NCBI RefSeq assembly: GCF_000146505.1
Contig: NC_017448.1
Span: 1,740,001 to 1,772,000 of the forward strand
Origin: Fibrobacter succinogenes subsp. succinogenes S85
GTDB taxonomy: Bacteria; Fibrobacterota; Fibrobacteria; Fibrobacterales; Fibrobacteraceae
Length of the DNA: 32,000 nt
Direction: 5' to 3'
Shown here: positions 1 through 25,787 of the stretch, piece by piece
Numbering within the stretch: the stretch's first letter is position 1
Layout of the letters: every line of letters starts with the position of its first letter
The notes under the pieces: model-generated
Databases searched by the model: none
The model's input: the letters and a program-made list of their open reading frames with translations, nothing else
Told to the model about the DNA's origin: nothing
Program-made: the position numbers and the translations under genes

Positions 1-1639
1 CATGACAATTCTTTTGAAGGTCGATACCTTCACCAGCCGCCTCTGTGGAAATCAAAAAGCGAACTTCACCATTGTTGAATTTTTCGCAAGCATCATTTCT
101 GGAAATAGAAATGTCACGAGAACATCCATCAGGATAAACTACATCTTTTAAGGATTCATCGCCATTGATTATGGTGACACTATTGTCCCCCCATACCTTC
201 ATCAATTCTGTCATCATCAGAGATTGCGTTCTTTTATATTCCGTAAATAAAAGAACCTGATCATTCGGATATTTCTCTTTGATAATTTCAACAATGCGGT
301 TGATCCTTGTTTCTGAGGTAACCTTTGTCGCTTTTTCTAATAATAAATTGATATGGTCTATTTCATTTTCCATCAGTTTCAAAGGTTCAGCAAGAGTCTG
401 AACACTGATTGTAGCCTCATCATCAAAGCCCTCCCGTTCATCTTCACCATAATTTGATAGGAAATTTTTATACGCAGTAGCTTTCCCTTCCAAAGCTTCC
501 TTACGATTTTTCAAAGCAGACGATATCGCAGCAATAGAGCTAGATGCAATTTTCTGCAAGCAGCTCAACAACAGACCTACCGCACTTCCAGCATTCCCTA
601 AGGTTTTAGCATACATATAACCAGCAGATATGAAAGCGGTCATCGCATCATAAAATTCTTTTTCTTCAGGAGAATAAGTAAAAGTATAAGGATGCTGAGT
701 CATCTTCGTGAAAAGAATTTTTCCCTTCATATCGACAACGTTCTTCTTGTTATTTCTAATAAAATAATCCTTAAGATGAGAATATTGCGATGCTTCGTCT
801 TTACCGGGTCCAAACACACCAGGAGCCACCAGTGACATTAATGACCAAAAGCCATAATTTTTTCCTCGATGAGGCGTACCTGTAAATAGTAAGCTCGAAA
901 CAATTTTCCCATTTTCCTGCAACATTTCAAACAGTTTGAACTGAAGAGTCTTGTTCCCCTGTTCTTCTGCATTCATATGATGAGCTTCATCGACAACAAC
1001 CAAATCCCATGCTGGAGCATCACATAAATGGTCAAACCTACCATGACTATCGGCCTGCATAGTCGATGCCGAAGCAACAACAAAAGTCGCACTTGTCCAA
1101 AAATCTGGATTCGTTTTTTCAACTTCCGTTGAATAGGCAAAGAATCCTAGATTGAACATACTTTTCATACGCTCTTGCCATTGTCCGACAAGTTTTGCAG
1201 GAGCAAGAATCAAAATGCGGCGTACCTTCCCAGTACTAAAGAGACTAGTCATAATAAGACCCGCTTCAATAGTCTTTCCCAAGCCAACATCATCCGCAAT
1301 AACATATCCTATAGGCCAACGGCTCAAAACCTGTTTACATACCCACAGTTGATGTGGCAAAAGTTCTATAGACGAACTAGAAAATAGTCCCCAACTGTTA
1401 TTTATAAATTTGACCACTTCACCTTGTATATGGACAAGAGCTTTTTTTTCTATTTCATTATCAACAGAGGCTGACAATTGATCAGAGAATGATGCGACCG
1501 GAGCCAATTCCGAAATGGAGATAAACTTGCCATTTTGACGATCCGAATCAAAACGGACTACAACCTGCGAATCAGTCAATACCGCTTCAATCTTTCCTCT
1601 ACCAAACTCTTTATGAATTACAATATCGCCCTGTTGCAT
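1..1639 (-). CDS. SNF2-family (SF2) helicase, N-terminal ~546 aa; the C-terminus runs off the left window edge
   Basis: This ORF is absent from the supplied track because no stop lies in the window; I translated it by hand from ATG 1639-1637. The sequence is MQQGDIVIHKEFGRGKIEAVLTDSQVVVRFDSD...ELLPHQLWVCKQVLSRWPIGYVIADDVGLGKTIEAG (motif I)...WDLVVVDEAHHMN (motif II, DEAH)...LFTGTPHRGK (motif III-like)...FLISTEAAGEGIDLQ (motif V) at the window edge. A strong SD (AAGGAG) sits 9 nt upstream. The ATG lies 2 nt after the stop of the upstream ORF. Confidence 0.9.
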   Translation of the reverse strand, partial: MQQGDIVIHKEFGRGKIEAVLTDSQVVVRFDSDRQNGKFISISELAPVASFSDQLSASVDNEIEKKALVHIQGEVVKFINNSWGLFSSSSIELLPHQLWVCKQVLSRWPIGYVIADDVGLGKTIEAGLIMTSLFSTGKVRRILILAPAKLVGQWQERMKSMFNLGFFAYSTEVEKTNPDFWTSATFVVASASTMQADSHGRFDHLCDAPAWDLVVVDEAHHMNAEEQGNKTLQFKLFEMLQENGKIVSSLLFTGTPHRGKNYGFWSLMSLVAPGVFGPGKDEASQYSHLKDYFIRNNKKNVVDMKGKILFTKMTQHPYTFTYSPEEKEFYDAMTAFISAGYMYAKTLGNAGSAVGLLLSCLQKIASSSIAAISSALKNRKEALEGKATAYKNFLSNYGEDEREGFDDEATISVQTLAEPLKLMENEIDHINLLLEKATKVTSETRINRIVEIIKEKYPNDQVLLFTEYKRTQSLMMTELMKVWGDNSVTIINGDESLKDVVYPDGCSRDISISRNDACEKFNNGEVRFLISTEAAGEGIDLQKNCH

Positions 1640-1641
1640 TA

Positions 1642-3426
1642 TTAAAACTCCTTTTCTATAAAAAGTATATCAAATGTATCATCCATAGTATTATGATCAG
1701 GCAACATTTCGCCTATTTTTCTGAATATCCGCACAGAACTTGCATTTTTGCAATCTAAGCCAAGCATTTTGCAGATTTTTTGTCGAGGCATAAAAGTTTG
1801 TAGTTTAATCTGTTCAAGTTTTTCTGGTTCCACGGCATCTTCGCCATCCACCCAGAAACCACTCCTGAGCAATTCTCGAAGTACGAAATGGATGCCCAAT
1901 TTGAACGATCTGTTCATAGTCGCATAATCAATATCCGTACCGGATAATTCTGAATCCATGGAAGGATAAAGAAGTACTGCAATATTTTCAAAATGCTCTC
2001 TTAACGGCAATTGCCGCACAACAGTATAGAAGTCAATAAATCTTTTTTGGAAACGACGCAATCTCAACATCATTTCAAACGGACGCAAATAGCATTCTTC
2101 GGAATGGGTTTCTTTATTGAATTGATCGCGGATATCTTGAAGATTTACTTTATTACAAAAATCATCAATAAAGCCATTTTCGTTAAGGAACTGTATTGCT
2201 TTTTTGAGAGAAACTTCCTGATGGTTATAGTACGGAAGACTTTGGCACATTCCATAAAGCATCAAAATGCACCATTCCTTGGTCATTTTTAAATCATCAC
2301 TAGATTCATCAAGAATCAGAGAATTACGGAATCTTAATTTTTCATGATCAAAGAAATCACTCGAATAAAGTTTTTCATAGTATAAGGCGACGAGAGATTC
2401 CTTTTCAGACAGCAATTGAAGCAATTCTGATTCAGTCAATTCTCTGCAATTTTTCAAATCATCTTCTGAATAATAAATATTCTCTTCCTGCGATGGTTCA
2501 GACAACACATTTATTGGAGTTGGAGTCCAATAATTTGAAGCAGTTCTGAGATTATTTAATAAATTATTTTTTTCAAAAAAAGCAATGCTGTTCGATGTAT
2601 AATATGACAAATCTATTTTTTCTTTTGCCAACCATACCGATGTACCATTTACTTCATATAGTTCTCGAATGGCAACCACTAAACCATCACTTGATTTTAT
2701 ATTAAAATCAATTTTATTAAAATCTTCCCAAAAGCTAGGCTTTACATTCGGTTTGAGGATAGACTCAATTAAAATAATATTGTCCAAAAGATCAACTGTC
2801 AAAGTCTTATTTTTTATTTCGGCAAAAAGATCAGCCAGTTCCATTTTATTTATTTCAATCAGAGAACCAAATTCTGAAAGATAGCTTTCCGAAGCCAAAT
2901 GAGTCATTACAAAAGCATCGCATTTATTGATTGCCAATATATTTTGAAAAGCATTCAACAATTTAGAGTCATCTCCATCCGTATAATTAGATGCGGCGAC
3001 AGAAAAAAGCCTAATGCGGTCTTCAAATTTAGTCACAGGCCCATAACCTGAAACTAATATTTTCTCCTGTCTGAATAATTTTTGCAAAATATTTTCAGCA
3101 AAAGGAGCAAAATACTTATCATTCGTATTTCGAGTTTTCAATAATAACGTCGCAATATCGTATGCATATTTTTGATAGGAATATGATGTAGATATCATTT
3201 CCTGCAAGATGACAAAAAGACAATTAGCGATTTTTTTCATCAACGTTTCATTTTTCTTATTTCCTGCAGCAAGGTTCTTTCGACCTGTATCTATTTCAAA
3301 ATCAGCATTAATAATAAAAGGTAACGTTTCAGACGCTTCAAGTGGCGTAAGATGCCATACGCGAGGATGCCAACTATCACATTCTGTCAAGTTAACTAAA
3401 ATTCCATCTAATTCTTTAAATAACAT
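1642..3426 (-). CDS. Uncharacterised protein, 594 aa from ATG 3426 (the track's 600-aa version starts at TTG 3444); its N-terminus looks like the missing C-terminal half of the upstream protein's second GHKL module
   Basis: A long open frame in an AT-rich region. The N-terminal motif TLPFIINADFEIDTGRKNL closely matches YAVIIHAPFAIDSGRKNI, which follows the first GHKL head in the 1819-aa protein. Neither candidate start has a convincing SD, whereas neighbouring genes carry AAGGAG-type SDs. It overlaps the upstream ORF by 19-37 nt. Confidence 0.7.
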   Translation of the reverse strand: MLFKELDGILVNLTECDSWHPRVWHLTPLEASETLPFIINADFEIDTGRKNLAAGNKKNETLMKKIANCLFVILQEMISTSYSYQKYAYDIATLLLKTRNTNDKYFAPFAENILQKLFRQEKILVSGYGPVTKFEDRIRLFSVAASNYTDGDDSKLLNAFQNILAINKCDAFVMTHLASESYLSEFGSLIEINKMELADLFAEIKNKTLTVDLLDNIILIESILKPNVKPSFWEDFNKIDFNIKSSDGLVVAIRELYEVNGTSVWLAKEKIDLSYYTSNSIAFFEKNNLLNNLRTASNYWTPTPINVLSEPSQEENIYYSEDDLKNCRELTESELLQLLSEKESLVALYYEKLYSSDFFDHEKLRFRNSLILDESSDDLKMTKEWCILMLYGMCQSLPYYNHQEVSLKKAIQFLNENGFIDDFCNKVNLQDIRDQFNKETHSEECYLRPFEMMLRLRRFQKRFIDFYTVVRQLPLREHFENIAVLLYPSMDSELSGTDIDYATMNRSFKLGIHFVLRELLRSGFWVDGEDAVEPEKLEQIKLQTFMPRQKICKMLGLDCKNASSVRIFRKIGEMLPDHNTMDDTFDILFIEKEF

Positions 3427-6400
3427 TTTAAAAGGACTTCGCAATCTCTATGATCCACTAACAAAAAGACTTCGCCATTCAACTTCACTTTTTTTATAGC
3501 AGTTTCACTTTTCGACAATTCACAAACATTTTGATATTCAGGCTCGATAACCTTATCCAATAAATATATTTTATTTATCTGTTTAGAAAATACCGTTAAA
3601 AATGCGGCACATTTTTCAAACTCAGCAAAGCAATCGTTTTCGACATCAATATCGTCTCTGCATTTCAATTCAATTTTGGTACAATCATCACATGTTTTAT
3701 CATATTCAATATTTTCGTCAGGATATATACCAGCAATAATTTTGAATTGCAAGTCACCGCTGCGAACAACCGGCTCATCGCATACAGTATAAACGCTTTT
3801 GAAGCCTAACCCAAATTTACCTGTTTGGCCATTTTCTTGGCTTTTTTCCGAAGACGCGATAGACAGCATGTTTTGCAAATCACGTTTAAAAGAATTCGCA
3901 ATATCATCATCCACTTCTGGAAAACTTTGATTAATCTTTCGACCGTAATGAATTATTTCAAGTCGTTTTGCAATAGAATCAAAATGCACCTCAAATTTTT
4001 TCTTATCGGCATATTTCAAGGCAATATCTTCAGGTGCCTTTAGAAAATCGTTAACGCAATCATCTGCATTCTGAAATAATTCAAAAAGGATACTTGAACT
4101 AAAATATTGATGTTCCTTTATCTTATGACAAACGCGATCAAAAATATATCGCTGTAAATCCGGTTCTCTTATTACTGTTTCTAACATTTCATTTCGCAAA
4201 TCCCATTCTTTTTGCGATTCACTTTCAGAATTCTCATCCTTATTGTCTAGACGATTTATTTCATTATTTAATCTTTTATACTCTTTGTGTTTTACATTCA
4301 AAAAATGTAATGTAGAGAAAATTTCTCGTCTAATGTGTTTTTGAGCAGCTTTTATCGTATATTGGCTAGTTTCGTCAATTAATTTAAAAAACTCATTTTT
4401 CAATAAAAACGCTTTTTTAACATCGATCTTATAAATATTCCACAAAAGAGTTTCTATTAAACATTTAATAGACTCATCAGTATTTATTCCAGACGATTTC
4501 AGCAACCTAACATTAAATGTCTTTGAGATCAAATCAAGATTAACATTTGGATCATACGTAACTTTCGGATTTATTGGAAATTCCTCGCATGTTCCAGCAA
4601 GACTCATCGCCTTATTTGTAGATTGAGAAATAACATTTGCAGTAACATTAATTTCATCAAAAGTCCTGAATCGATTACGCTTGCTTTCTTCCGTTGGGAA
4701 AAGTTTATTGACATGACTAGACGGAATAGTAAATTCATCTCGACAAAATTCATCCAATTTACCAAGAATGGAATCTTCTAAAGCACCAGCCATTCTGCGG
4801 AATTTTCCCTGCATCAAGTATAAAGCTAAAGAAACCAATTTAGGTTGCTTACAATTCTGTCTCCAAAAATCAACAACTTCTTTAATTTCAGCATCCGTTG
4901 CTTTCGGCAAACGCTGTACCATATCATTTTGGGGTATATAATTTGAAATCAAATCATAAGTTTCAGAAGAGCACAGGTTATCTCTTTTGTAAAGTTTCTG
5001 ACCTATACTATGGGAATCAGAACATTGAGGAACAGCAATCAGTTCCGTCGCTAATTTCCATTCCCTTTCAAGTTCATTTTCTGCATTTGGAAATCTACGA
5101 ATATCAGACAACTTAAAATTTGGGTTATCTTTAATCAATTTTAAAATATGATTAAATAATTTTAAAGCATCATCTTCGCAACGGGTATTTTCAGTCAAAG
5201 TATTTAATAATTCTATTCCGTTTTCATAATCAAATGCACCAGGAATTCTTAACTGACAATAGTTCTTCAACAATTCTTCTTTTGAAATTTTTAATTTCGA
5301 ATCACTTCCGATAACCGCATATATTTTTAGTATTTTATTTTTTTGTGTAAGATTATTTATTGCGAGATTAAATATACGCTGCTTTTCATCTTTATCTTCA
5401 ATAGGAAAGTAATAGTTTGAATATTTTTCTTGAATTCGAACGTTTATTTCATCAATTAAATCTAAATTTCTCCTTTTCAAGAAACCCGTTATGTATTTTT
5501 TCTTATCATCATTTATATCTACATCTTCCAATAAAATAAAATTCAACGATTCCTTTAGGATTGCAAAAGATTCTTGTGAGCACCTATCTGTGGTAAGGAT
5601 ATCTTTTATTGAACATAGATTTTCCGAATTCTTTAAAGGAATCCAACAGATACTATCTATTTGACTTAATTCTTTATCCGAAAAAGTGACATAACGCTGC
5701 ATTCTTTCAAGAATCCAATCACAACAGTTTCTAAGAATTCTAGGTTCAAATTTATATGAAATAAGAAATTCCCTTAACGCAGCTCCCTGTGTCAAAATTT
5801 CATAACGATTTCTGTCCGAATCGCTTATAAAAAACGAATCTTGTTTACTTCTCAGCAAATCATCCTTTTCACATGGTATAATTTTACCCTCCAATGAAGG
5901 TACATCTACCTCAAATTCAATATTATGCTTATTATACCACGTTGATCCTGGAACGAAAGACACAAATTCACCTTTTTCATTTTTATGTAAAGGTATTCTA
6001 TAATACAAGTTCCTTTTTGGTTCATTAATGACTTCAAATATTTGCTTGCGATTACTCTCATTTTGATAATACTCCGTTTTCATAAAATCAAGATTATTAC
6101 CTTGAGAAAAATGTACAAGCATTTCTTGACATTCATTATTATCTAGCCATGTTATATTTTTCAAAAGAGTATTGTGATTTTCAACAAATTTTTTTTGATT
6201 TTCGCTAAGAGTTAAAAGTTCTATTGCTTTATTATCCTTTTTTAAGCAATCTTCATATATTTTTTTCCAAACTTCACTACAATTAGGCTTTAGAATACAA
6301 ATTTTTGACTGCGTTTCCTTGAACCCCATCAATAAAAATGTATAGATTCCTGAATATTCTGGTCGAATATTTTCAAGCAAACTGTTTCTATCAAAAATAC

Positions 6401-8867
6401 TTTCAAGAAAATCTTTTCTTATATCTTCATCATTTGAAATTGCAAGATATTGCTGATATTTTTCTTTCAGATAATCTAAGGCACCAGCCTTATTTGCACT
6501 ACGTGCAAATTTATTCAGGAAAGCACTTCGATTGACATCAGCATTTTCCACCATGTATAAGTTTTCATTTTCAATCAACTTTACAAGCTTGCAAATAATA
6601 TGCGACGAATCACTAAAATCAAATTCCCTAAAAAGATTTATTTTTAAAACTGCATTATAGTCTAAAAAGTCTATTGTATTGTTAAGGATATTTTTTCCCC
6701 TATCATACTGAATTTTCTGTACTTTAAAGACCTTCAAATTTGAGCGATAGTCTCTTTCTATTTTTGACAAAACAGACTTTATACTATCACCGGCAATAGC
6801 TTGTATTACACTTAACTGAGCTTTGCCTGAAAGTTTATTTTCCTCTGCACAAATACATAAAAAATAGAGAAATTCATCAAAATCATATTCAATATTACAA
6901 TTGTTATGAACTAGTGTTTGCGAAGGCAACAATATAAAGGGATTATCTTTTTCCCATAAATATGTCCACTCGTCATCTAAAATGTCAATATTCTGAATTT
7001 CGTAAAACTCTATTACACTACACAAATCCTTTATTTTATTTATAGATGTCATTACCTTGGCAACACCTAAATTCGCCAAAGCCCTTAGTATAGCTGTTCT
7101 TATGCAATTTTTTAAATTCAAATCGCTATGCAACCTAGTTTTATTTATTCCATTTATTAAAATTAATTTATGTAGAAATTCAATAATCAATTCATCTTCA
7201 AAAAGCTCGCTAGGAATAGTCGCAAGTAATTGTTCAAAAGCATTTAAATCAAATTTTATTGTTGGCGGCAAAGTAGAAACAGTATCCGTCAAAAGAAGAA
7301 CATCCATTGACCCAGCCATTTTCGTTAGCCAGTTTAACAATTTAGAATCATCTGTTTCAGGAATGTGTATATATCTACCGCCTCGCTCAACCTGAAGTAA
7401 AATCCATTCCTTTACGCCACCAGCATTTATTCTTCTAACAAACACATTTTTGGCATTAACGTATTCTAGGCGACGTTTCTCGCCATCTTCGCCTTGTTGA
7501 AGCAAATCATACAGTTTTTTACCAACATCCTTAACATCCTGTTCTAACAACACCCCATCTTTTAAAGCCTTATCTAATAACGACGGTAAACTAGGAGCCA
7601 AAATAGACTGAAAAAGTATTCTATTCCACCATCGATGAAGCGGTTTTTCCTCATCCAAAGAATATTCTACATTTTCAAAATCGTTCATTTCTACTCTATG
7701 ATGGCAGATTGTATCAAATTTGTAAATATTTTTTCTTCCAGAATCAATTGCAAATGGAGCATGTATAATTACAGCATAATTAAAATCGCAATCAATCCTT
7801 TTTATTTCCCCAATTTTTTCTTGTTTCGGCAAAGGAAGATACGAGGCAAAAGAAAGCCTCAAATTTATTTTTTCATCTTGTACAATTCTTGGAATTCGTA
7901 ACAACTGTAACACTGTAGTCCCACGAAGGCGCTCTTCAGCAAGCTCATTTATTGATTTCCCAAAATCAACGATTTTTTTCTTAGTTTTCAAAGAACCTTC
8001 GTAATCACATTTAGCCAGTCTACGTGCCAATTCGTTAACAACTCTTTTTTGTTCTTCATTTGCAAAAATACTTTCGCCAACAACATCTCTTAGTGATGAA
8101 AAAGGAACTACAATTTCGTCTTGAAAATTCAGTGAAAGTCTACAGTTATTTTCATTTACATTCAGCAGAATGTTACAATCTCCTAAATCATAGCGAAATT
8201 CTTTTAATTTTGTTCCTTTTGACGATTTCGAAAGAATTGCAAAAGTAAGAATAATATTTTGTATTAACTCAGAGCATCCTTTTTCATTTCTGTTAAATGG
8301 ATGTTTAGGATCGACCGGTTCAGAGCCAATTTTATTTTTTCCATCAACAGGAATAAAAAAAGATAAACCATCTTGTTCTTTTTCAAATTGTTCAACAAGA
8401 GCCTTTTCATCGTCTTCTGTAAGATCAGCAAATTCACCAGAATTACCATCGTCATCTTTACCTTTTAAGGGACTCAATCCATTAATAAGCTTATCTTTAT
8501 GACCATAATAGATAAATGCATCACATAAATGATAAATGCTTTTTAAGCCAAAACCATACCTACCAATTGTGGTAGCATCATTTTTTTTGTTATCGCCTCC
8601 AAACATGGCGATGTTTTTTGCATCATCTTCATCAAACTTTCCATTATTATAAACAACAATCCCAGCTCTTTTTAATAGCGGGCAATGAGCATTAGGAACA
8701 GCTGTAAACGAACGAATAACAATTTTTGTCGCATTGGCATCACTGGCATTTTGAATTAGTTCCTTTAATATGGTAAAACCAGAGCCATATTTATAGTTAT
8801 CAAGATTTAATTGAATGGTGGAAAGAATATTAGTTTCATAATTCGAAAAAGAAGATCTTTTTAGCAT
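3408..8867 (-). CDS. Giant (1819 aa) protein with two sacsin/MORC-like GHKL (HATPase_c-type) ATPase heads
   Basis: The N-terminal head has ILKELIQNASDANATKIVI (Bergerat N-box type E-x-x-QNA-D-A) followed by IGRYGFGLKSIYHLCD. The second head, near the C-terminus, has ILFELFQNADDCVND followed by GKFGLGFKSVYTVCD. Both pairs fit the ELIQNADDA / GxFGxGFxSVYHxxD signature of sacsin-repeat/NOV-type GHKL domains. About 1200 aa with no recognisable domain lie between the two heads. The start is an ATG at 8867. Confidence 0.9.
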   Translation of the reverse strand: MLKRSSFSNYETNILSTIQLNLDNYKYGSGFTILKELIQNASDANATKIVIRSFTAVPNAHCPLLKRAGIVVYNNGKFDEDDAKNIAMFGGDNKKNDATTIGRYGFGLKSIYHLCDAFIYYGHKDKLINGLSPLKGKDDDGNSGEFADLTEDDEKALVEQFEKEQDGLSFFIPVDGKNKIGSEPVDPKHPFNRNEKGCSELIQNIILTFAILSKSSKGTKLKEFRYDLGDCNILLNVNENNCRLSLNFQDEIVVPFSSLRDVVGESIFANEEQKRVVNELARRLAKCDYEGSLKTKKKIVDFGKSINELAEERLRGTTVLQLLRIPRIVQDEKINLRLSFASYLPLPKQEKIGEIKRIDCDFNYAVIIHAPFAIDSGRKNIYKFDTICHHRVEMNDFENVEYSLDEEKPLHRWWNRILFQSILAPSLPSLLDKALKDGVLLEQDVKDVGKKLYDLLQQGEDGEKRRLEYVNAKNVFVRRINAGGVKEWILLQVERGGRYIHIPETDDSKLLNWLTKMAGSMDVLLLTDTVSTLPPTIKFDLNAFEQLLATIPSELFEDELIIEFLHKLILINGINKTRLHSDLNLKNCIRTAILRALANLGVAKVMTSINKIKDLCSVIEFYEIQNIDILDDEWTYLWEKDNPFILLPSQTLVHNNCNIEYDFDEFLYFLCICAEENKLSGKAQLSVIQAIAGDSIKSVLSKIERDYRSNLKVFKVQKIQYDRGKNILNNTIDFLDYNAVLKINLFREFDFSDSSHIICKLVKLIENENLYMVENADVNRSAFLNKFARSANKAGALDYLKEKYQQYLAISNDEDIRKDFLESIFDRNSLLENIRPEYSGIYTFLLMGFKETQSKICILKPNCSEVWKKIYEDCLKKDNKAIELLTLSENQKKFVENHNTLLKNITWLDNNECQEMLVHFSQGNNLDFMKTEYYQNESNRKQIFEVINEPKRNLYYRIPLHKNEKGEFVSFVPGSTWYNKHNIEFEVDVPSLEGKIIPCEKDDLLRSKQDSFFISDSDRNRYEILTQGAALREFLISYKFEPRILRNCCDWILERMQRYVTFSDKELSQIDSICWIPLKNSENLCSIKDILTTDRCSQESFAILKESLNFILLEDVDINDDKKKYITGFLKRRNLDLIDEINVRIQEKYSNYYFPIEDKDEKQRIFNLAINNLTQKNKILKIYAVIGSDSKLKISKEELLKNYCQLRIPGAFDYENGIELLNTLTENTRCEDDALKLFNHILKLIKDNPNFKLSDIRRFPNAENELEREWKLATELIAVPQCSDSHSIGQKLYKRDNLCSSETYDLISNYIPQNDMVQRLPKATDAEIKEVVDFWRQNCKQPKLVSLALYLMQGKFRRMAGALEDSILGKLDEFCRDEFTIPSSHVNKLFPTEESKRNRFRTFDEINVTANVISQSTNKAMSLAGTCEEFPINPKVTYDPNVNLDLISKTFNVRLLKSSGINTDESIKCLIETLLWNIYKIDVKKAFLLKNEFFKLIDETSQYTIKAAQKHIRREIFSTLHFLNVKHKEYKRLNNEINRLDNKDENSESESQKEWDLRNEMLETVIREPDLQRYIFDRVCHKIKEHQYFSSSILFELFQNADDCVNDFLKAPEDIALKYADKKKFEVHFDSIAKRLEIIHYGRKINQSFPEVDDDIANSFKRDLQNMLSIASSEKSQENGQTGKFGLGFKSVYTVCDEPVVRSGDLQFKIIAGIYPDENIEYDKTCDDCTKIELKCRDDIDVENDCFAEFEKCAAFLTVFSKQINKIYLLDKVIEPEYQNVCELSKSETAIKKVKLNGEVFLLVDHRDCEVLLKCYLKN
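3414..3432 (-). other. Two candidate -1 ribosomal frameshift heptamers inside the ORF overlap
   Basis: In the frame of the 1819-aa ORF the mRNA reads GTC CTT TTA AAA TGT TAT TTA AAG AAT TAG. T_TTA_AAA occupies 3432-3426 and T_TTA_AAG occupies 3420-3414; both fit X_XXY_YYZ. A -1 slip at either site enters the frame of the 600-aa ORF (..FKMLFKELD.. or ..FKELD..). The stop follows 1 codon after the second heptamer. Confidence 0.35.
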
Positions 8868-8902
8868 GTTTATTCCATAATTTCGATGAATCTTATCTTT
8901 TC

Positions 8903-8908
8903 AATATA
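8903..8908 (-). promoter_or_regulatory. Candidate -10 box (TATATT) for the giant GHKL operon
   Basis: In gene orientation the sequence reads TTTTTATATTGAAAAG, about 35 nt upstream of ATG 8867. The same TATATT-type box recurs upstream of pilT and of the island genes. No -35 element could be assigned. Confidence 0.3.
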
Positions 8909-8941
8909 AAAAATGATTGCTCCCGCTTTTTTTTGTACATT

Positions 8942-8975
8942 AAAAAGCCCTCATTCAAAACGAGGGCTTTTTTTC
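8942..8975 (-). terminator. Rho-independent (bidirectional-looking) terminator downstream of pilC
   Basis: The stem GCCCTC (8947-8952) pairs with GAGGGC (8962-8967) around a 9-nt loop. An A-run lies on one side and a T-run on the other. It sits about 40 nt after the pilC stop and marks the right border of the AT-rich insertion. Confidence 0.6.
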
Positions 8976-9012
8976 ACTTATTTTGTAAAAACATGCAGTA
9001 TTACGCCGTTTA

Positions 9013-10215
9013 TTAGCCCTTGATTGCGTCGCCCATGCTAAACATCGGCATATACATTGCAATCAGGAGGCCACCGACGGCACCGCCCAAGAACACGATG
9101 ATGAGCGGTTCAATCATACTCACGACGGCATCAACTGCGGCGTCCACTTCTTCATCATAGAAGTCCGCGAGCTTCAAAAGCATACCACCCAAGTTACCAG
9201 TCTTTTCACCGACGCCCGTCATCTGGATCACCATGGGCGGGAAAATGCCCACTTCTTCCATCGGCTCGGCAATGGACTTACCACCAGCAATACCAATCGA
9301 TATCTTATAAATTGCCTTTTCAACAACTTTGTTACCTGCGGTTGTCGCAACAACCTTCAAGGCATCCATCACAGACACACCAGCATTCAAAAGCGTTCCG
9401 AGCGTTCGAGCAAAGCCAGCCGTCGCAGACTTAATCTGCAAATCGCCTAGCTTTGGGACTTTTAGCGTAAACTTGTCCATTGCAAATTGCGCTTGCGGTA
9501 TTCGCATTATCATCTTGTAGGCAAAAATGATAATGATAACGCCAATAAACATAAACGCACCGTTGTTGCGTATAAAGTCAGAAATATTCATCACGACTTG
9601 CGTCGGGGCCGGGAGTTCTGCATCAAGAGCAGCAAACTGTTCAGCGAACGTCGGCACCACGAACGTCATAAGTGCAATCACAACGACAATACCCACGATA
9701 ATAACCATGATCGGGTACGTCAAAGCTTTTTTCACCTTGCGTTTGAGGCGCTGGTTGTTTTCAAGAGTTTCTGCCAGACGAGCCAGAATGCCTTCAAGAA
9801 TACCACCCGCTTCACCAGCAGCCACCATGTTGCAATACAGGGAGTCAAAAACCTTCGGGTGCTGCGCCAAGGCATCAGCCAAGGAAGAACCGCCGTTAAT
9901 TGACTGCGTGAGCTTATGCACAACGTTCTTGAGTTCCGGGTTTTCGCACTGCGCTTCAAGAATGTTCAAGCACTGCAACATTGGAAGACCCGCCGAGCAC
10001 ATGGACGAGAACATACGCGTAAAACGGGTGATGTCTTCGGTCTTGATGCCGGAACCAATCTTAATCTTGATTTCGGTCGGTTTTTTCTTGAGGCTCGTAA
10101 TAATCAAGCGACGGCGGAGCAAAAGGGCTTCGGCTTCGGCCCTGTCCTTAGCTTCAAGCGTACCTTCAAAGCTATTACCCTGCGAGTTTTGGGCCTTGTA
10201 CAAAAATTCAGCCAT
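9013..10215 (-). CDS. pilC: Type IV pilus assembly platform protein PilC (GspF/T2SS-F family)
   Basis: The 400-aa protein has the typical duplicated T2SS-F architecture and three hydrophobic segments. It lies immediately downstream of pilT, with a 3-nt gap. Confidence 0.88.
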   Translation of the reverse strand: MAEFLYKAQNSQGNSFEGTLEAKDRAEAEALLLRRRLIITSLKKKPTEIKIKIGSGIKTEDITRFTRMFSSMCSAGLPMLQCLNILEAQCENPELKNVVHKLTQSINGGSSLADALAQHPKVFDSLYCNMVAAGEAGGILEGILARLAETLENNQRLKRKVKKALTYPIMVIIVGIVVVIALMTFVVPTFAEQFAALDAELPAPTQVVMNISDFIRNNGAFMFIGVIIIIFAYKMIMRIPQAQFAMDKFTLKVPKLGDLQIKSATAGFARTLGTLLNAGVSVMDALKVVATTAGNKVVEKAIYKISIGIAGGKSIAEPMEEVGIFPPMVIQMTGVGEKTGNLGGMLLKLADFYDEEVDAAVDAVVSMIEPLIIVFLGGAVGGLLIAMYMPMFSMGDAIKG

Positions 10216-10218
10216 TGA

Positions 10219-11286
10219 TTACACCCCTTCCTTTACAAACAACTGTTCCAACTGATCCGGGCTCGACGAACGAGCAAGAGCGTCAAAACGATCGACCTTG
10301 TGGTTCTTGACAAGTTCACACAAGCACATGTTCATCGTGTTCATGCCGAACTTCTGACCAATTTCAATCATGGATTCAATCTGGTGAACCTTGTCATCAC
10401 GGATCAAAGCGCGGATACCCGGCGTCACGTTCATGACTTCGTACGCCATCACGCGTCCACCGCCAATCTTTGGCAAAAGGGTCTGACAGATAACTCCCTG
10501 GAGCACAAACGAGAGCTGCGTACGCACGGTCTGCTGTTCACCCTTCGGGAAGGCGTCGACCACACGGTTGATGGTCTGCACGCAAGAGTTTGTATGAAGC
10601 GTTGCAAAAGTCAAGTGACCCGTTTCGGCAATCGTAAGCGCCGAGCGGATCGTTTCCAAGTCACGCATTTCGCCGATGAGCACCACGTCCGGGTCCTGAC
10701 GAAGAGCCATCTTGAGGGCCTGCGCAAAGCTATGCGTATCGCTACCGACTTCACGCTGGTTGATCATGCAACCCTGATGCTTATGCAAAAATTCGATCGG
10801 GTCTTCAACCGTCAGAATGTGGTCGTGACGTTCCTTGTTAATCTTGTCGATCATGGCAGCCAAGGTCGTGGACTTACCAGAACCGGTAGCACCCGTCACA
10901 AGCACAAGGCCAGAAGGACGTGTCGTAAATTCGGCCATAATCTTCGGGAGGCCGAGGTCCTTAAACGTCTTGATATCAAGCGGAATAATACGGAGGGCAA
11001 GCGCCACACAGCCACGCTGCAAGTAGGCGTTCGCACGGAATCGCGCAAGATTTGCAATACCGAATGAAAAGTCGCATTCCTTTTGCTGTTCAAAAGTCTT
11101 TTTCTGGGCTTCATTCATCAAGCTGTAAGTCATACGCATGGTTTCGTCGGGCTTAAGCTTGTTTTCCCCGATGGGGGTAAGCTTGCCGGAAAGACGAATA
11201 AGAGGGGGTGCGCCGGCCGTAATATGCAAGTCGGACGCCCCACGTTTGACCATTTCTGCTAAAAGATCTTGAATGTTATATGCCAT
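10219..11286 (-). CDS. pilT: Twitching-motility retraction ATPase PilT
   Basis: The 355-aa protein has Walker A GATGSGKSTT, the Asp box/Walker B VVLIGEMRD, and PilT-type length and N-terminus (..DLHITAGAPP..). Confidence 0.9.
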   Translation of the reverse strand: MAYNIQDLLAEMVKRGASDLHITAGAPPLIRLSGKLTPIGENKLKPDETMRMTYSLMNEAQKKTFEQQKECDFSFGIANLARFRANAYLQRGCVALALRIIPLDIKTFKDLGLPKIMAEFTTRPSGLVLVTGATGSGKSTTLAAMIDKINKERHDHILTVEDPIEFLHKHQGCMINQREVGSDTHSFAQALKMALRQDPDVVLIGEMRDLETIRSALTIAETGHLTFATLHTNSCVQTINRVVDAFPKGEQQTVRTQLSFVLQGVICQTLLPKIGGGRVMAYEVMNVTPGIRALIRDDKVHQIESMIEIGQKFGMNTMNMCLCELVKNHKVDRFDALARSSSPDQLEQLFVKEGV

Positions 11287-11337
11287 GCACTAGAATATAA
11301 TTTAAAAAGCTCAAAAATTTCATAAATTCTTTATGCA

Positions 11338-11856
11338 ATGCGTTCATCCACTTATAAAATTCTCGCATGGGTAGGGGCAATTATTTTCCTCGGCTTCGCG
11401 TTTTATGCGTTCGAAGCCAAGTCCCGACAGCGCCTGAACTACCCAGAAACGGTCGTGAACTTCACGGCTGACGATGTGATGGGCGGCAAATCGGACTACG
11501 CAAGCGAGAAGGGGACTGCAACGCTTATTGTTTTAACCGCCTCCTGGTGTCCATCATGCCGGGCGGAACTTCCGATACTCAAGCAGTTCAACGAGGAATT
11601 TGGACCGAAGGGCCTCAAGATTCTGATGATTGACGAGGACGACTCCAAGAAGGTCGCCCGCAAGTACAAGAGAAGCATGGATATCCCGTGGACGATGCTC
11701 CACTGGAACTACGACGCGCTCAAGGCGCTAGGAAGCCCGGGTGTGATCCCCGTGAGCTATGTGGTCGACAAGGACGACAAGGTCCAGCACGTTGATGTCG
11801 GAGTGCTCAACGAACTGAGAGTCCGACACGAGCTAAAGCGACTGCTGGGACAGTAA
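11338..11856 (+). CDS. Membrane-anchored TlpA/ResA-like thiol-disulfide oxidoreductase (thioredoxin fold)
   Basis: There is an N-terminal hydrophobic anchor (ILAWVGAIIFLGFAFYAF) and a WCPSC redox motif. The 172-aa length is typical of the redoxin family. Confidence 0.8.
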   Translation: MRSSTYKILAWVGAIIFLGFAFYAFEAKSRQRLNYPETVVNFTADDVMGGKSDYASEKGTATLIVLTASWCPSCRAELPILKQFNEEFGPKGLKILMIDEDDSKKVARKYKRSMDIPWTMLHWNYDALKALGSPGVIPVSYVVDKDDKVQHVDVGVLNELRVRHELKRLLGQ

Positions 11857-11881
11857 TTTAGACGAAAGATCGCTTCGCTGA

Positions 11882-11963
11882 TAGACGAAAGACGAGAGAA
11901 AAATAATGGCACTTCGTGCGTCTTTATAGGGCGGCTTAGCCGCGATTTCCTCTCTTTCGTCTA
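11882..11963. repeat. Imperfect inverted repeat / long hairpin between convergent genes (possible bidirectional terminator)
   Basis: The left arm TAGACGAAAGACGAGAGAAA (11882-11901) faces the right arm TTTCCTCTCTTTCGTCTA (11946-11963); the first 11 nt of the arms are perfectly complementary. An extra direct copy of AGACGAAAG lies at about 11867. An inner hairpin GCGGC-TTA-GCCGC is present. The right arm abuts the epmA stop. Confidence 0.45.
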
Positions 11964-11964
11964 C

Positions 11965-12936
11965 TCACGCTATCGGGCTTGGGAAGAGGATCACGTCAGC
12001 GATTTCTTCTTTACCGAGGGCGAGCATGAACAGGCGGTCGAGCCCGAGAGCCACACCAGAGCAAGCTGGCATACCCGATTCAAGAGCAGCAAGGAACCGT
12101 TCGTCAATAGGCGGTAAGGGCTTGTTCATCCCCTTACGAATTTCCAAATCAGCATAGAAACGGCGACGTTGTTCCACCGGGTCCGTAAGTTCCGTGTAAC
12201 CATTGCAAAGTTCCACCTGGTTCACGAAAAGCTCAAAGCGGCGAGCCCACGTGTAACCTTCATTATCCACGTACGTCTGTGCGAGAGCCGCCTGCGATGG
12301 CGGGTAATCCAAGATGAACTCGGGACCATTACTTGCGAGAGCAGGTTCCACGAGGAAGACCATGAGATAGTCCCACCAGTCTTCGCGCGTGAGCGTCTCG
12401 CTCTTTTCGGGTACGGGAATCTCGCGAGCGCGGCAAGCATCCGCAAAGTCCGTAAGCTTTTCACAAAACGGATTCACGCCAGCGTAATTCTTGAAAGCAT
12501 CAATCCAGCGGGTGCGGCGGGCATTTAGTTTGGTCCCAATAATTTCACTCACAAGGTCTTCGACTTCGTCCATGAGTTTGTCCTGAATCATACCCACGCG
12601 GTACCATTCCACCATCGAGAACTCGTTGTTGTGGTGGCCGCCAAATTCATCCTTGCGGAACGACTTTGTAATCTGGAAAATGTCACCGAACTTTGCAGCG
12701 AGCAAGCGCTTCATGTGAAATTCCGGGCTCGTCATCATGAACCGCTTCGGGTCTTCAATCTCAAAGTAATCGAGCTGCGGATCCGTTCCACCGTATGCAG
12801 AAAGCACAGGCGTCTCGACTTCGAGCGCATTACGACGAACAAAGAAATCACGGACGCGGGCCATCAGCGCCTGGCGCTTGACCCAAGTTTCACGCGTGCA
12901 AGTGGGCGCAAATGCGCCCGAGTTCAAATTTTCCAT
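11965..12936 (-). CDS. epmA: EF-P--(R)-beta-lysine ligase EpmA (GenX/PoxA; truncated class II LysRS paralog)
   Basis: The 323-aa protein is a class II aaRS catalytic core without an anticodon-binding domain. Diagnostic stretches include FRKDEFGGHHNNEFSMVEWY, RFELFVNQVELCNGYTELTDP and CSGVALGLDRL. Confidence 0.85.
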   Translation of the reverse strand: MENLNSGAFAPTCTRETWVKRQALMARVRDFFVRRNALEVETPVLSAYGGTDPQLDYFEIEDPKRFMMTSPEFHMKRLLAAKFGDIFQITKSFRKDEFGGHHNNEFSMVEWYRVGMIQDKLMDEVEDLVSEIIGTKLNARRTRWIDAFKNYAGVNPFCEKLTDFADACRAREIPVPEKSETLTREDWWDYLMVFLVEPALASNGPEFILDYPPSQAALAQTYVDNEGYTWARRFELFVNQVELCNGYTELTDPVEQRRRFYADLEIRKGMNKPLPPIDERFLAALESGMPACSGVALGLDRLFMLALGKEEIADVILFPSPIA

Positions 12937-14312
12937 TACTCAGCTCCGGCTACACAACGGACCGCAAGATAGAAACTCGGATCCACGGAAATGGAGCCGA
13001 CATCCTTATCGGAGCTGAACATTGTGCGAGCCTTGCCACGAGAATCTTCTTCGGAATCGGCAGTCCAGAAGTAGGCGCCCTCGCCCATCGTCGTGCAGAC
13101 GCCAGTCTTGTTGGCGTAGCCACCGAACATGGCCGTGAATGCATAATCGTCACTGCCGTTGCTCTTGAGCTTGAGTGCCGCAGAGCGTGCGCCACCGGCG
13201 TATTCTTCAAGCTTTTTCCAGTCCGCATCCGTGGCGAGATGGTAGCCTGCCGGGCAAGCCTTCTTGGCGGCTTCTTGCGTGTAAAGGCGGCCAAACGTTT
13301 TGCAGTTCGCATCATCGCGGTCGTAGCAAATCGAGCCATCAGGATCATTGTAGTTCAAGTTTTCGACGAACCAATCTACGCCACCGATTTCCTTGACCTT
13401 GTAAACTTGTTTGTCACGCTTGTCCACAAAGTTCTTGAACACCGGGCAGCGAGCGCTGAAGCCAGCCTCCGAGAGAATCGGATCGACCTTGCCCTTCCAA
13501 GCCGTGCAGAAGCGGAACAGCTGACCGCCCGGGAGCGAAGCGCCCTTATGCTTGGCGGCCCAAGACTTCACGTAATGGAGGCCCGTCACGGCGGTATCGG
13601 GAATTGAGAGCACCTTGGCATACTTGCCAGCGAGTGCGGCATACGTCCCGGCAACAGACATCGGAGCTTTCCAGAAGCCTTCGGAAAGACCTTCGCGCAA
13701 GCTTGCAAAAACCGGAGACGGTTTGTAGACCTTAATCGTCTTGTCCACCATCTGTTCAGGTTTCGTCTTGCAATTCACATCATGGTCAATCGCCATCAAT
13801 GAATTCGCATCCACCTTGCACTGGGCAATGCACTTTGTTCGTGCAGCACCCTTCTTGGGGCAAGGTTTCCAGACCGTCGTATCAACACTCACGAGCGACT
13901 GTTTTCCAAAAGCCTTCGTCTTCGTTGCAGCCTTAGCCACCTCGTCTAGCGTCTTGAGAGCCTTTGCGCTCCCCTTCTCGCCATCGGCGAGCAAATACTT
14001 GATGACACCCGAGCAGGCATTCGCGGCATTCGCCATCGAACACACCTTCGGCCCAAAGCCATACGCAAACTGGGACGGGCAAGCGGCAAACGCTTCATCC
14101 GGCATCTGCTTGAAATGCTTGCCATAAATGTTTGTCGCATTCTTCGCAGACATCTTACCGCAATAGATTTCTTCAAGTTCGCCGGAATTGACAATCTTTT
14201 TCACCTTTTTCCAGTTGTTGGAATCAACGGCCTTGCGGAGCGCTTCTTGGGCAAAACTACCCTGTGCCAAAATTGCAGAACAAACCAAACTTGCTATAAA
14301 AAGATTCTTCAT
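12936..14312 (-). CDS. Secreted protein with a C-terminal 'Fibrobacter succinogenes major paralogous domain' (FISUMP-type)
   Basis: A Sec signal peptide is present (MKNLFIASLVCSAILAQGSFAQ). The C-terminal region WFVENLNY...CYD...FGRLYTQEAA..ACPAGYHLATDADWKKLE...YFWTA...AVRCV matches the known W-x-ENLN / GxLYTW / CPxGWHLPxxxEW pattern. Its stop overlaps the epmA start (TAATG). Confidence 0.8.
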   Translation of the reverse strand: MKNLFIASLVCSAILAQGSFAQEALRKAVDSNNWKKVKKIVNSGELEEIYCGKMSAKNATNIYGKHFKQMPDEAFAACPSQFAYGFGPKVCSMANAANACSGVIKYLLADGEKGSAKALKTLDEVAKAATKTKAFGKQSLVSVDTTVWKPCPKKGAARTKCIAQCKVDANSLMAIDHDVNCKTKPEQMVDKTIKVYKPSPVFASLREGLSEGFWKAPMSVAGTYAALAGKYAKVLSIPDTAVTGLHYVKSWAAKHKGASLPGGQLFRFCTAWKGKVDPILSEAGFSARCPVFKNFVDKRDKQVYKVKEIGGVDWFVENLNYNDPDGSICYDRDDANCKTFGRLYTQEAAKKACPAGYHLATDADWKKLEEYAGGARSAALKLKSNGSDDYAFTAMFGGYANKTGVCTTMGEGAYFWTADSEEDSRGKARTMFSSDKDVGSISVDPSFYLAVRCVAGAE

Positions 14313-14492
14313 CTAAACCTCTTTTAAAACTTAACTAGATCCTTCGCTTTCGCTCAGGATGACACTATGAATAGTTTTAATATATAACGAATTATAAACA
14401 ATCCCTAATGAATAATCAAAAAAAATCTTGAACCCTAATAATATTTTACTTGAATTTGACTCCGGCTATAGAGGATTTCTATCTTTTGGAGC

Positions 14493-15716: not shown

Positions 15717-15741
15717 ATTCCGCCAGTTTTGCAGGATTCTC

Positions 15742-16575: not shown

Positions 16576-16587
16576 TTTAACTTGCTC

Positions 16588-16616
16588 TTGACTTTTTTAA
16601 CTTAATAAGTTAAATT
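16588..16616 (+). promoter_or_regulatory. Sigma70-like promoter (TTGACT-17-TAAATT) with an embedded perfect 8-1-8 palindrome
   Basis: TTGACT lies at 16588-16593 and TAAATT at 16611-16616, with a 17-nt spacer. The palindrome TTAACTTA-A-TAAGTTAA at 16597-16613 overlaps the spacer and the -10 box. The SD AAGGAGAG and ATG 16636 follow. Confidence 0.45.
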
Positions 16617-16635
16617 AAAGTTAAAAGGAGAGAGC

Positions 16636-18372: not shown

Positions 18373-18375
18373 AAT

Positions 18376-18861: not shown

Positions 18862-18888
18862 GAATCCTCTTTTTTTGAGACTATCAAG

Positions 18889-18931
18889 AATGTAGATTCA
18901 ACGGACGACAATTAACGTCGTCCGACATACC
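18889..18931 (-). promoter_or_regulatory. Island element copy 1 (AATGTA box - N10 - ACGAC N7 GTCGT palindrome)
   Basis: AATGTA lies at 18889-18894. GGACGAC-AATTAAC-GTCGTCC lies at 18903-18923 (7-bp arms). The element is 27 nt upstream of ATG 18861 and 17 nt downstream of the GNAT stop. It shares more than 40 nt with copy 3, differing at only a few positions. Confidence 0.6.
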
Positions 18932-18939
18932 AACAGAAT

Positions 18940-19715: not shown

Positions 19716-19831
19716 ATTTGTTCTCCTAATATACATTTTACCGTTTCGATTTGCAATTCTAAATACCGCCGTTGCCGGAATCCAACTGAATACGAACGTG
19801 TTTTTTCTTGACTCATTTAGCCTCCTAGTTT

Positions 19832-19868
19832 TGAAAAAAAGAAAAAGCATCCGAAATTTTTCGGATGC
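19832..19868 (-). terminator. Rho-independent terminator after the tandem AAA+ gene
   Basis: On the minus strand the stem GCATCCG pairs with CGGATGC (19847-19853 / 19862-19868) and is followed by TTTTTCTTTTTTT. Confidence 0.7.
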
Positions 19869-22259: not shown

Positions 22260-22286
22260 GGTTTTAACCTCAATTTTGCACCATGC

Positions 22287-25785: not shown

Positions 25786-25787
25786 AT

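What the first reader, a model, noticed from the sequence alone, without database searches (positions are those of the whole stretch)
3408..3444. The second GHKL module is split across two ORFs whose overlap contains two -1 slippery heptamers
- **Domain split:** after the first GHKL head the 1819-aa protein carries YAVIIHAPFAIDSGRKNI. The equivalent motif for the second head (TLPFIINADFEIDTGRKNL) lies not in that ORF but about 45 aa into the next ORF, which is in the -1 frame.
- **Slippery sites:** the 37-nt overlap reads ..C_CTT_TTA_AAA_TGT_TAT_TTA_AAG_AAT_TAG. This gives two X_XXY_YYZ heptamers, T_TTA_AAA (3432-3426) and T_TTA_AAG (3420-3414), just before the stop. X_XXA_AAG heptamers are the classic efficient bacterial -1 sites.
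- **No SD:** the downstream ORF has no convincing SD, whereas neighbouring genes have AAGGAG.
- **Interpretation:** this fits either programmed -1 frameshifting, giving a ~1.8-kaa product and a ~2.4-kaa fusion at a set ratio, or an indel in an A/T run (sequencing error or pseudogenisation).
Basis: partly seen in the sequence, partly recalled or inferred. Interest (0 to 1): 0.7.

Follow-up and report, generated by a model that had tools for sequence, protein, structure and literature searches.

The report
One-base deletion splits one gene
The two overlapping ORFs are one 2408-residue ATPase gene of Fibrobacter succinogenes S85 that has lost a single T in this genome record, so this is an ordinary frameshift defect or sequencing error and not programmed ribosomal frameshifting.

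Summary
ORF1 (3408-8867, -) and ORF2 (1642-3444, -) overlap by 37 nt. ORF2 is in the -1 frame. T_TTA_AAA and T_TTA_AAG lie in ORF1's zero frame. The second GHKL module is cut in two.

The cause is mundane. The window is F. succinogenes S85, from the record with the 3,843,004-bp chromosome and FSU_ tags. The other S85 genome (Fisuc_1049) and at least ten independent read assemblies encode one 2408-aa protein. Over 11.3-11.9 kb they match the window exactly except for one base: GAAGTTCCTTTT there, GAAGT-CCTTTT here (next to window 3436).

This missing T lies upstream of both heptamers. The heptamers are the in-frame Phe-Lys codons TTT AAA read out of register. Such heptamers are common in this 31%-GC gene: 31 in 1819 codons.

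All 80 relatives from other phyla read through the junction in one frame. No downstream RNA structure exceeds shuffled controls.

The split allele recurs in one further run (SRR29904083). It may therefore be a real mutation in one laboratory line rather than a base-calling error. Either way it is not recoding.

Seen in passing: the gene belongs to a widespread, apparently uncharacterised cassette with a DrmD-like SNF2 helicase.

The parts
3436..3437 (-). Site of the single-base deletion. The intact allele reads G-T-T-C-C (codons GTT CCT, Val1811-Pro1812). The window reads G-T-C-C, with one T of the TT pair missing.
   Evidence: Ten independent assemblies (L001-L010) are identical to window 1..11867 apart from this single gap. 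Protein P0024 reads ...DCEVPFKMLFKELD....
3436..8867 (-). N-terminal 1811 codons of the single 2408-aa sacsin-like two-headed GHKL ATPase gene. It holds head 1 with its DSGRK motif, a long linker, and the Bergerat-fold part of head 2.
   Evidence: ORF1 residues 1-1811 are identical to P0024 residues 1-1811.
3408..3434 (-). Out-of-frame tail of ORF1 (LLKCYLKN plus TAG). This is sequence of the true gene read in the wrong register after the deletion.
   Evidence: These 8 residues replace PFKMLFKE of the intact protein.
1642..3435 (-). C-terminal 597 codons of the same gene, in ORF2's frame, starting at CCT (Pro1812). It includes the strand carrying FIINADFEIDTGRK, which completes head 2, and the conserved C-terminal region. 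The annotated 594-aa protein FSU_1502 starts at the internal Met1815 (ATG 3426).
   Evidence: In alignment A1 the nearest homologue reads NVPFQILFR against the intact EVPFKMLFK, so conservation runs upstream of ORF2's ATG to the exact indel site.
3426..3432 (-). T_TTA_AAA heptamer. It is fortuitous: the in-frame Phe-Lys codons TTT AAA of the intact gene read one base out of register.
3414..3420 (-). T_TTA_AAG heptamer. It is fortuitous: the second in-frame Phe-Lys (TTT AAA G) of the intact gene read one base out of register.
1..1639 (-). First 546 codons of the partner gene, an 876-aa DrmD-like SNF2 helicase. It starts 3 nt after the stop of the 2408-aa gene and runs off the window, so the ORF listing does not show it.
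   Evidence: PADLOC DrmD PDLC02634, E 2.4e-194, full length.

Best explanation
The locus is one gene, not two. It encodes a 2408-residue protein with two sacsin-like GHKL (Hsp90-type) ATPase modules. This record of F. succinogenes S85 lacks one T (GTTCC has become GTCC, next to window 3436).

**Consequence for translation (inferred):** translation from ATG 8867 stays correct to Val1811, then runs out of frame for 8 codons to TAG 3410-3408. The remaining 597 codons sit in the -1 frame. Gene callers rescue them as a separate 594-aa ORF from the first internal ATG. The expected product is a truncated 1819-aa protein. It would lack the last strands and the DxGRK loop of head 2 and the whole C-terminal region.

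**The heptamers:** they are a by-product. The true frame encodes Phe-Lys twice as TTT AAA, which becomes T_TTA_AAN when read one base off.

**Shown:** the one-base difference; the intact state in the same strain; the intact state in all relatives examined.

**Inferred (origin of the missing base):** I lean, at about 60:35, to a real non-programmed frameshift mutation carried by one laboratory line of S85, rather than a base-calling error in the record. The reason is that one independent sequencing run reproduces both broken ORFs exactly. Under either origin this is not a recoding signal (about 0.97 for that combined statement).
For: **Strain and alleles**
- ORF1 and ORF2 are WP_041917831.1 and FSU_1502 of S85, on the 3,843,004-bp chromosome. 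The same 90% cluster holds Fisuc_1049, a 2408-aa protein from the 3,842,635-bp S85 chromosome, seen on 54 contigs.
- (PMC3079729): the two accessions, CP002158 and CP001792, are the same strain.
- Fisuc_1049 equals ORF1 residues 1-1811, plus PFK, plus ORF2.
- the intact protein is indexed in 55 blocks of the collection. The ten loci fetched all translate to it.

**DNA-level difference**
- L001-L010 match window 1..11867 with 0 mismatches and exactly 1 gap, which is the T.
- L011 matches window 9956..32000 at 100%. That T is therefore the only difference found in the 32 kb.

**Relatives**
- the nearest homologue keeps V-P-F at the junction.
- 80 of 80 relatives from many phyla cover the junction and the DxGRK motif in one frame.
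- the Fibrobacter MAG has a single 2318-aa ORF.

**Structure and frameshift signals**
- in a model of head 2 (pLDDT 73.5, pTM 0.77) the break falls just before a beta-strand. The fragment aligns better to Hsp90 or TRAP1 N plus middle domains (TMq 0.50-0.57) than to N-domains alone (about 0.4).
- no downstream RNA structure.
- such heptamers are frequent.

**Real mutation versus error**
- exactly the same ORF1 and ORF2 are also called on an 8328-nt contig assembled from run SRR29904083.
Against: - I could not see reads or traces, so error and mutation are not separated.
- SRR29904083 gave no DNA and no metadata. It could be simulated or reference-derived data. That would remove the only support for a real variant.
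- 55 blocks carry the intact allele against one run with the split. This shows the split is at best a minority line.
- The AlphaFold model rests on only 7 sequences and has moderate confidence.
- Nothing tested here says whether a truncated protein is actually made.
Confidence: 0.6

Rival explanations
1. Base-calling or assembly error in this genome record. The organism has GTTCC and an intact 2408-aa gene. One T was dropped during sequencing or finishing. The two RefSeq proteins (1819 aa and 594 aa) are annotation artefacts.
For: - The same strain's other finished genome and 55 blocks of independent assemblies carry the intact gene.
- The window differs from them by that base alone in 32 kb.
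- Finished genomes of that era allow an error of this order; the sister project states less than 1 in 100,000 bp (PMC3079729).
Against: - An independent run (SRR29904083) yields a contig with exactly the same two broken ORFs. An error confined to one record would not predict this unless that run derives from the record.
- The site is a TT pair, not a long homopolymer.
Confidence: 0.35
2. Programmed -1 ribosomal frameshifting at T_TTA_AAA or T_TTA_AAG. This would give an 1819-aa product and a roughly 2408-aa fusion at a set ratio.
For: - Both heptamers are in the correct phase just before the stop.
- ORF2 has no SD.
- The domain continues in the -1 frame.
- X_XXA_AAG motifs are shift-prone in E. 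coli (PMC4066793).
Against: - The intact allele in the same strain needs no frameshift. There the heptamers are out of phase.
- The frame change maps to a missing T upstream of both heptamers.
- 80 of 80 relatives and the Fibrobacter MAG are single-frame.
- No downstream structure exceeds shuffles, and there is no GGAG-like stimulator upstream.
- Heptamers without stimulators gave only 2.1-10 times a 0.055% background in E. coli.
- 31 such heptamers occur in ORF1 alone.
Confidence: 0.03
3. Two genuinely separate genes, as a natural fission of the two-headed protein. Relatives do encode the two heads as two adjacent proteins.
For: In L012 the heads are 892-aa and 1460-aa genes overlapping by 4 nt. 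In L014 they are 1204 aa and 1044 aa.
Against: - The natural boundary corresponds to residues 891-924 of the S85 protein, between the modules. The window's break is at 1811/1812, inside head 2.
- That break separates the Bergerat fold from its DxGRK strand.
- No relative is split there.
- The same strain has the intact gene.
Confidence: 0.01

Closest known systems
Frameshift-disrupted gene: a pseudogene allele or sequencing-error split ORF, as commonly seen between two assemblies of one strain
   Same: A single-base indel is present. The upstream ORF ends a few out-of-frame codons later. The downstream part is rescued from an internal ATG without an SD. The intact version exists in the same strain and in all relatives.
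   Different: Nothing differs in kind. The only unusual point is that the out-of-frame tail happens to contain two slippery heptamers.
Bacterial programmed -1 frameshift sites (dnaX A_AAA_AAG; IS3/IS911 A_AAA_AAG)
   Same: An X_XXA_AAR heptamer lies in the zero frame shortly before a stop, with the continuation in the -1 frame.
   Different: The two-frame layout is not conserved. There is no downstream hairpin or pseudoknot and no upstream SD-like stimulator. The heptamers are out of phase in the wild-type allele. The frame change is caused by a deletion upstream of them.
Sacsin / SACS-domain GHKL ATPases (Pfam PF25794, NCBIfam NF047352; Hsp90-like head plus following domain, repeated in sacsin)
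   Same: There are two repeats of a Bergerat-fold head: ELIQNASDA...GRYGFGLKS and ELFQNADD...GKFGLGFKS. Each is followed by a strand plus a D-x-GRK loop. The predicted fold matches Hsp90, TRAP1 and GyrB N plus middle domains.
   Different: The protein is bacterial. It has no DnaJ or HEPN domain. It carries a different, uncharacterised C-terminal region, and its gene is coupled to an SNF2 helicase gene.
DISARM (DrmD SNF2 helicase, DrmA, DrmB, DrmC, methylase) and Tiamat (TmtA)
   Same: The neighbouring helicase matches PADLOC DrmD model PDLC02634 over its full length. In some relatives (L012, L030) DrmA and DrmB follow directly. The GHKL heads match the N-terminus of TmtA models.
   Different: No DrmA, DrmB, DrmC or methylase is seen next to the pair in S85 within the DNA available. 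Only about 100 residues of the 1300-1780-position TmtA profiles are matched.

Membership tests
Programmed -1 ribosomal frameshift site | Slippery X_XXY_YYZ heptamer in the zero frame, upstream of the zero-frame stop | tested here: met
   T_TTA_AAA at 3432-3426 and T_TTA_AAG at 3420-3414. Such heptamers occur 31 times in ORF1.
Programmed -1 ribosomal frameshift site | The two-frame gene layout and the heptamer are conserved in orthologues and other isolates | tested here: not met
   The same strain's other genome and 10 of 10 fetched assemblies are single-ORF. So are the Fibrobacter MAG, with a single 2318-aa ORF, and 80 of 80 relatives.
Programmed -1 ribosomal frameshift site | Stimulatory element: a downstream hairpin or pseudoknot at 5-9 nt, and/or an upstream SD-like sequence | tested here: not met
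   Downstream folds are no better than shuffles (z -0.17, +0.18, +0.05). There is no GGAG, AGGA or GAGG in the 25 nt upstream.
Programmed -1 ribosomal frameshift site | Two protein products at a defined ratio | not testable with these tools
   Needs a reporter assay or proteomics.
Sacsin-type GHKL ATPase (PF25794 / NF047352) | Profile match above the curated cut-off, with Bergerat motifs (E-x-x-x-N-A-x-D; G-x-x-G-x-G) | tested here: met
   Pfam SACS scores 108.9 bits against a cut-off of 32.8, in 2 stretches. NF047352 scores 119.7 bits against 50, in 2 stretches.
Sacsin-type GHKL ATPase (PF25794 / NF047352) | Hsp90-like fold of the head plus the following domain | tested here: met
   Model pLDDT 73.5, pTM 0.77. 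Foldseek against PDB gives full-length Hsp90, TRAP1 and GyrB43 as best hits, with E about 3e-7 and TMq 0.50-0.57. Confidence is moderate.
Sacsin-type GHKL ATPase (PF25794 / NF047352) | ATP binding and hydrolysis | not testable with these tools
   Biochemistry required.
DISARM | DrmD-type SNF2 helicase | tested here: met
   PADLOC PDLC02634, E 2.4e-194, residues 2-854 against profile positions 6-869 of 900.
DISARM | Core genes drmA, drmB (DUF1998) and drmC, plus a methylase, in the same locus | tested here: not met
   In S85 the SNF2 gene is followed by a 154-aa gene, and only about 370 nt beyond it was available. PilC lies upstream. DrmA and DrmB are adjacent in only 2 of the 50 SNF2-positive loci among the 60 relatives with enough flank, plus L012. 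The S85 flank was not fully seen.
Tiamat (TmtA) | Full-length match to a TmtA profile | tested here: not met
   Only the roughly 100-residue GHKL head aligns. For example, residues 9-117 match profile positions 27-132 of 1655.

The most novel reading that the evidence does not exclude
This reading needs two things to hold. First, the deletion allele is real in a living S85 line. Second, the two fortuitous heptamers in the 27-nt out-of-frame tail allow low-level spontaneous -1 slippage. That slippage would restore a nearly wild-type 2408-aa protein, differing at 2 residues (..EVLLKMLFK..) or 6 residues (..EVLLKCYLKELD..). The frameshift mutation would then be leaky rather than null. This would be an accidental 'saviour' frameshift, not an evolved signal.
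Probability: 0.12. Interest if true: 0.2.

Novelty: not a real feature. Interest (0 to 1): 0.08.

Why it matters
As a recoding candidate it does not matter. It is a one-base defect private to one record, or to one laboratory line, of a much-studied strain.

Practical value:
- Two RefSeq proteins (WP_041917831.1, 1819 aa, and WP_014545787.1, 594 aa) are halves of one protein. They should not be used as family members or as domain-architecture evidence.
- It is a cautionary example for scans. In AT-rich genes, a frameshift error readily produces 'slippery heptamers' just before the stop, because Phe-Lys codons (TTT AAA) read out of register are X_XXY_YYZ.

The more interesting by-product is the conserved gene pair of a two-headed sacsin-like GHKL ATPase and a DrmD-like SNF2 helicase. 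It is found across many phyla and sometimes joined to DrmA and DrmB. It looks like an uncharacterised defence-type module.

Tried and rejected
- **Word-indexed protein search.** The junction-spanning fusion returned no close relative (best 36%) and did not return the strain's own proteins. The exact look-up was what revealed the intact allele.
- **Position of the missing base.** My first guess was that a C was missing from a CCC run. This was inferred from the protein alone and was wrong. The DNA shows a T missing from GTTCC.
- **Exact-pattern scans.** Scans of genome contigs and metagenome contigs for either allele found nothing. This gave no information on natural populations.
- **Literature searches.** I searched for the SRR accessions, for Fisuc_1049 and FSU_1502, and for DISARM combined with GHKL or sacsin. 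None found anything relevant.
- **Apparently non-coding DNA at 1-1641.** I considered that the ORF-free stretch meant degraded DNA and a pseudogene-rich genome. I rejected this because the stretch is the SNF2 gene running off the window.
- **Natural fission.** I considered that the split was the natural fission seen in relatives. I rejected this because that boundary is at residues 891-924, not 1811.
- **Pfam coverage.** The Pfam SACS profile does not reach the junction in head 2: it matches profile positions 13-150 of 247. Continuity across the junction therefore rests on homologue alignment and the structure model.
Full report
**1. What is in the window**

ORF1 (3408..8867, minus strand, 1819 aa) ends at TAG 3410-3408. 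ORF2 (1642..3444; TTG at 3444, first ATG at 3426) lies one base upstream in phase, so it is in the -1 frame.

In ORF1's frame the 37-nt overlap reads GTC CTT TTA AAA TGT TAT TTA AAG AAT TAG. T_TTA_AAA (3432-3426) and T_TTA_AAG (3420-3414) are therefore true zero-frame X_XXY_YYZ heptamers. Pfam SACS (PF25794) and NCBIfam NF047352 each hit ORF1 twice. The motif that follows head 1 (HAPFAIDSGRKNI) has its head-2 counterpart (INADFEIDTGRKNL) in ORF2.

**2. Identity of the sequence, and the decisive comparison**

Exact look-up shows that ORF2 from ATG 3426 is FSU_1502 (ADL25638.1). ORF1 is WP_041917831.1 of Fibrobacter succinogenes S85, on a 3,843,004-bp chromosome. The same 90% cluster contains Fisuc_1049 (ACX74654.1, 2408 aa). 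That protein comes from the other finished genome of the same strain (3,842,635 bp) and was seen on 54 contigs. Suen et al. 2011 (PMC3079729) confirm that CP001792 (Fisuc_ tags) and CP002158 (FSU_ tags) are two projects on strain S85.

Fisuc_1049 equals ORF1 residues 1-1811, then PFK, then the 594-aa ORF2.

Ten independent read assemblies that encode the 2408-aa protein were fetched, out of 55 index blocks. Over 11.3-11.9 kb they are identical to the window with 0 mismatches and exactly one gap. They read GAAGTTCCTTTTAAAATG where the window reads GAAGT-CCTTTTAAAATG. Another assembly matches window 9956..32000 at 100%. So the missing T, next to 3436, is the only difference found in the 32 kb.

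**3.

The frame change sits upstream of both heptamers, not in them. The intact gene reads GTT CCT TTT AAA ATG TTA TTT AAA GAA (V P F K M L F K E). The two heptamers are simply the two Phe-Lys codon pairs TTT AAA read one base off.

Heptamers of this type are abundant in this 31%-GC gene. There are 31 in ORF1's zero frame, including A_AAA_AAG and another T_TTA_AAG. Across all genes of the window there are 79 per 9412 codons.

RNA downstream of either heptamer folds no better than shuffled sequence (z -0.17, +0.18, +0.05). No SD-like stimulator precedes them. In E. coli, heptamers without stimulators give only 2.1-10 times a 0.055% background (PMC4066793).

ORF2's lack of an SD is what one expects of an internal Met codon. 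It is weak evidence in any case, because ORF1, pilT and the thioredoxin gene also lack one.

**4. Relatives**

- **Nearest homologue.** P0001 (36% identity over the best local alignment to the junction query; 27% over the full-length comparison with P0024) aligns straight through the junction: NVPFQILFR against EVPFKMLFK. Conservation therefore runs upstream of ORF2's ATG to exactly the indel.
- **Survey.** A scan of one genome per species found 274 relatives. All 80 kept loci, from many phyla, cover the junction and the DxGRK motif in a single reading frame.
- **Closest genus-level relative.** An uncultured Fibrobacter MAG has one 2318-aa ORF.
- **Natural fission.** Some relatives do encode the two heads as two adjacent genes: 892 + 1460 aa in L012 and 1204 + 1044 aa in L014. 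That boundary corresponds to residues 891-924 of the S85 protein, between the modules, and not to 1811.

**5. Structure**

I built an AlphaFold model of head 2 from a 7-sequence alignment (pLDDT 73.5, pTM 0.77). It places the break immediately before a beta-strand (FKMLFKEL). A further short strand, the strand carrying FIINA, the DTGRK loop and a long helix all follow the break.

Foldseek finds full-length Hsp90, TRAP1 and GyrB43 as best matches. TMq is 0.50-0.57 for these, against about 0.4 for isolated N-domains. The fragment therefore includes more than the nucleotide-binding domain.

By analogy with GHKL enzymes, the conserved Lys/Arg of D-x-GRK may be the residue that contacts the gamma-phosphate. 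This is inference, not tested here.

**6. Error or mutation?**

The same two broken ORFs are also called on an 8328-nt contig assembled from run SRR29904083. No DNA or metadata could be obtained for it. If that run holds real reads, the deletion exists in a living line of S85. It would then be an ordinary loss-of-function, or at best leaky, frameshift mutation in a probable defence gene. If the run derives from the record, a base-calling error remains fully adequate.

I lean 60:35 to a real lineage-specific mutation. Programmed frameshifting gets about 3%.

**7. Context noticed**

The 2408-aa gene and the following 876-aa SNF2 helicase form a low-GC insert (31-39% GC) next to pilC and pilT (49-51% GC). 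The helicase gene starts 3 nt after the stop. Window 1-1639 is its 5' part.

The helicase matches PADLOC DrmD model PDLC02634 over its full length (E 2e-194). Among 60 related loci with at least 6 kb of downstream DNA, 50 have such a helicase on the same strand directly after the GHKL gene (39-51% identity to the S85 helicase). In L012, L030 and L056, DrmA and DrmB are also present.

I found no paper linking DISARM components with sacsin-like GHKL proteins in the searchable library. This pair looks like a widespread, uncharacterised defence-type module.

**8. Verdict**

The programmed-frameshift interpretation is not supported. Interest as a recoding site is low.

Noticed in passing
window 1-8867 (- strand); loci L001, L012, L014, L016-L097: There is a conserved cassette: a two-headed sacsin-like GHKL ATPase (one gene, or two adjacent genes) directly followed by a DrmD-like SNF2 helicase (PADLOC PDLC02634, E 2e-194 to 9e-284). 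50 of 60 related loci with enough flank have it. They span Fibrobacter, Treponema, cyanobacteria, Proteobacteria, Desulfobacterota, Planctomycetota, Chloroflexota and others. DrmA and DrmB also follow in L012 and L030 and lie nearby in L056. No literature on this pairing was found.
   Followed up: partly
window 1642-8867; public protein records: RefSeq carries the two halves as separate proteins: WP_041917831.1 (1819 aa, named 'sacsin N-terminal ATP-binding-like domain-containing protein') and WP_014545787.1 (594 aa, hypothetical). They are not flagged as one frameshifted gene. The intact protein is WP_015731905.1 (2408 aa).
   Followed up: yes
Logan run SRR29904083, 8328-nt contig (no DNA available): This is the only other place where the exact 1819-aa and 594-aa ORFs occur. 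It suggests that the deletion allele may exist in a real culture or community. The nature of the run is unknown.
   Followed up: partly
window 1-8867 versus 9013-16575: There is a sharp GC drop. The GHKL gene is 31-33% GC and the SNF2 gene 39%. The flanking housekeeping genes (pilC, pilT, epmA, sufS) are 49-55%. The pair looks horizontally acquired.
   Followed up: partly
window 16636-32000: A second low-GC stretch (41%) is rich in defence-type genes. It holds a 795-aa double-AAA protein with an IetA/IteA-like C-terminal ATPase (19956-22343). It also holds two PDDEXK_4 / PADLOC PDC-S26 proteins (22350-23567, 24473-25645) and two AAA_14/DUF4143 PDC-S01-like proteins (16636-18372, 27345-28631). 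A Fic/Doc toxin lies at 28762-29292. According to the gene table of L011, a PLD-family protein and a WCX-domain protein lie beyond it.
   Followed up: partly
L012 (892 + 1460 aa), L014 (1204 + 1044 aa) versus S85 (2408 aa), L019 (2318 aa), L030 (2163 aa): The two GHKL modules are fused into one giant protein in some lineages. In others they are encoded as two adjacent, sometimes 4-nt-overlapping, genes. The boundary lies between the modules, at S85 residues 891-924.
   Followed up: partly
L015 (ERZ25039538) and L017 (ERZ25072076): Other assemblies show the head-1 gene in pieces: 163 + 505 + 638 aa with a DDE_3 transposase inserted in L015, and 124 + 891 aa on a 1x-coverage long-read contig in L017. 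Fragmentation of these giant AT-rich genes by errors or insertions seems common.
   Followed up: no
window 12936-14312 (- strand): A 458-aa protein carries a C-terminal FISUMP (Fibrobacter succinogenes major paralogous) domain (TIGR02145, E 1.5e-36). This gave the first clue to the organism.
   Followed up: no
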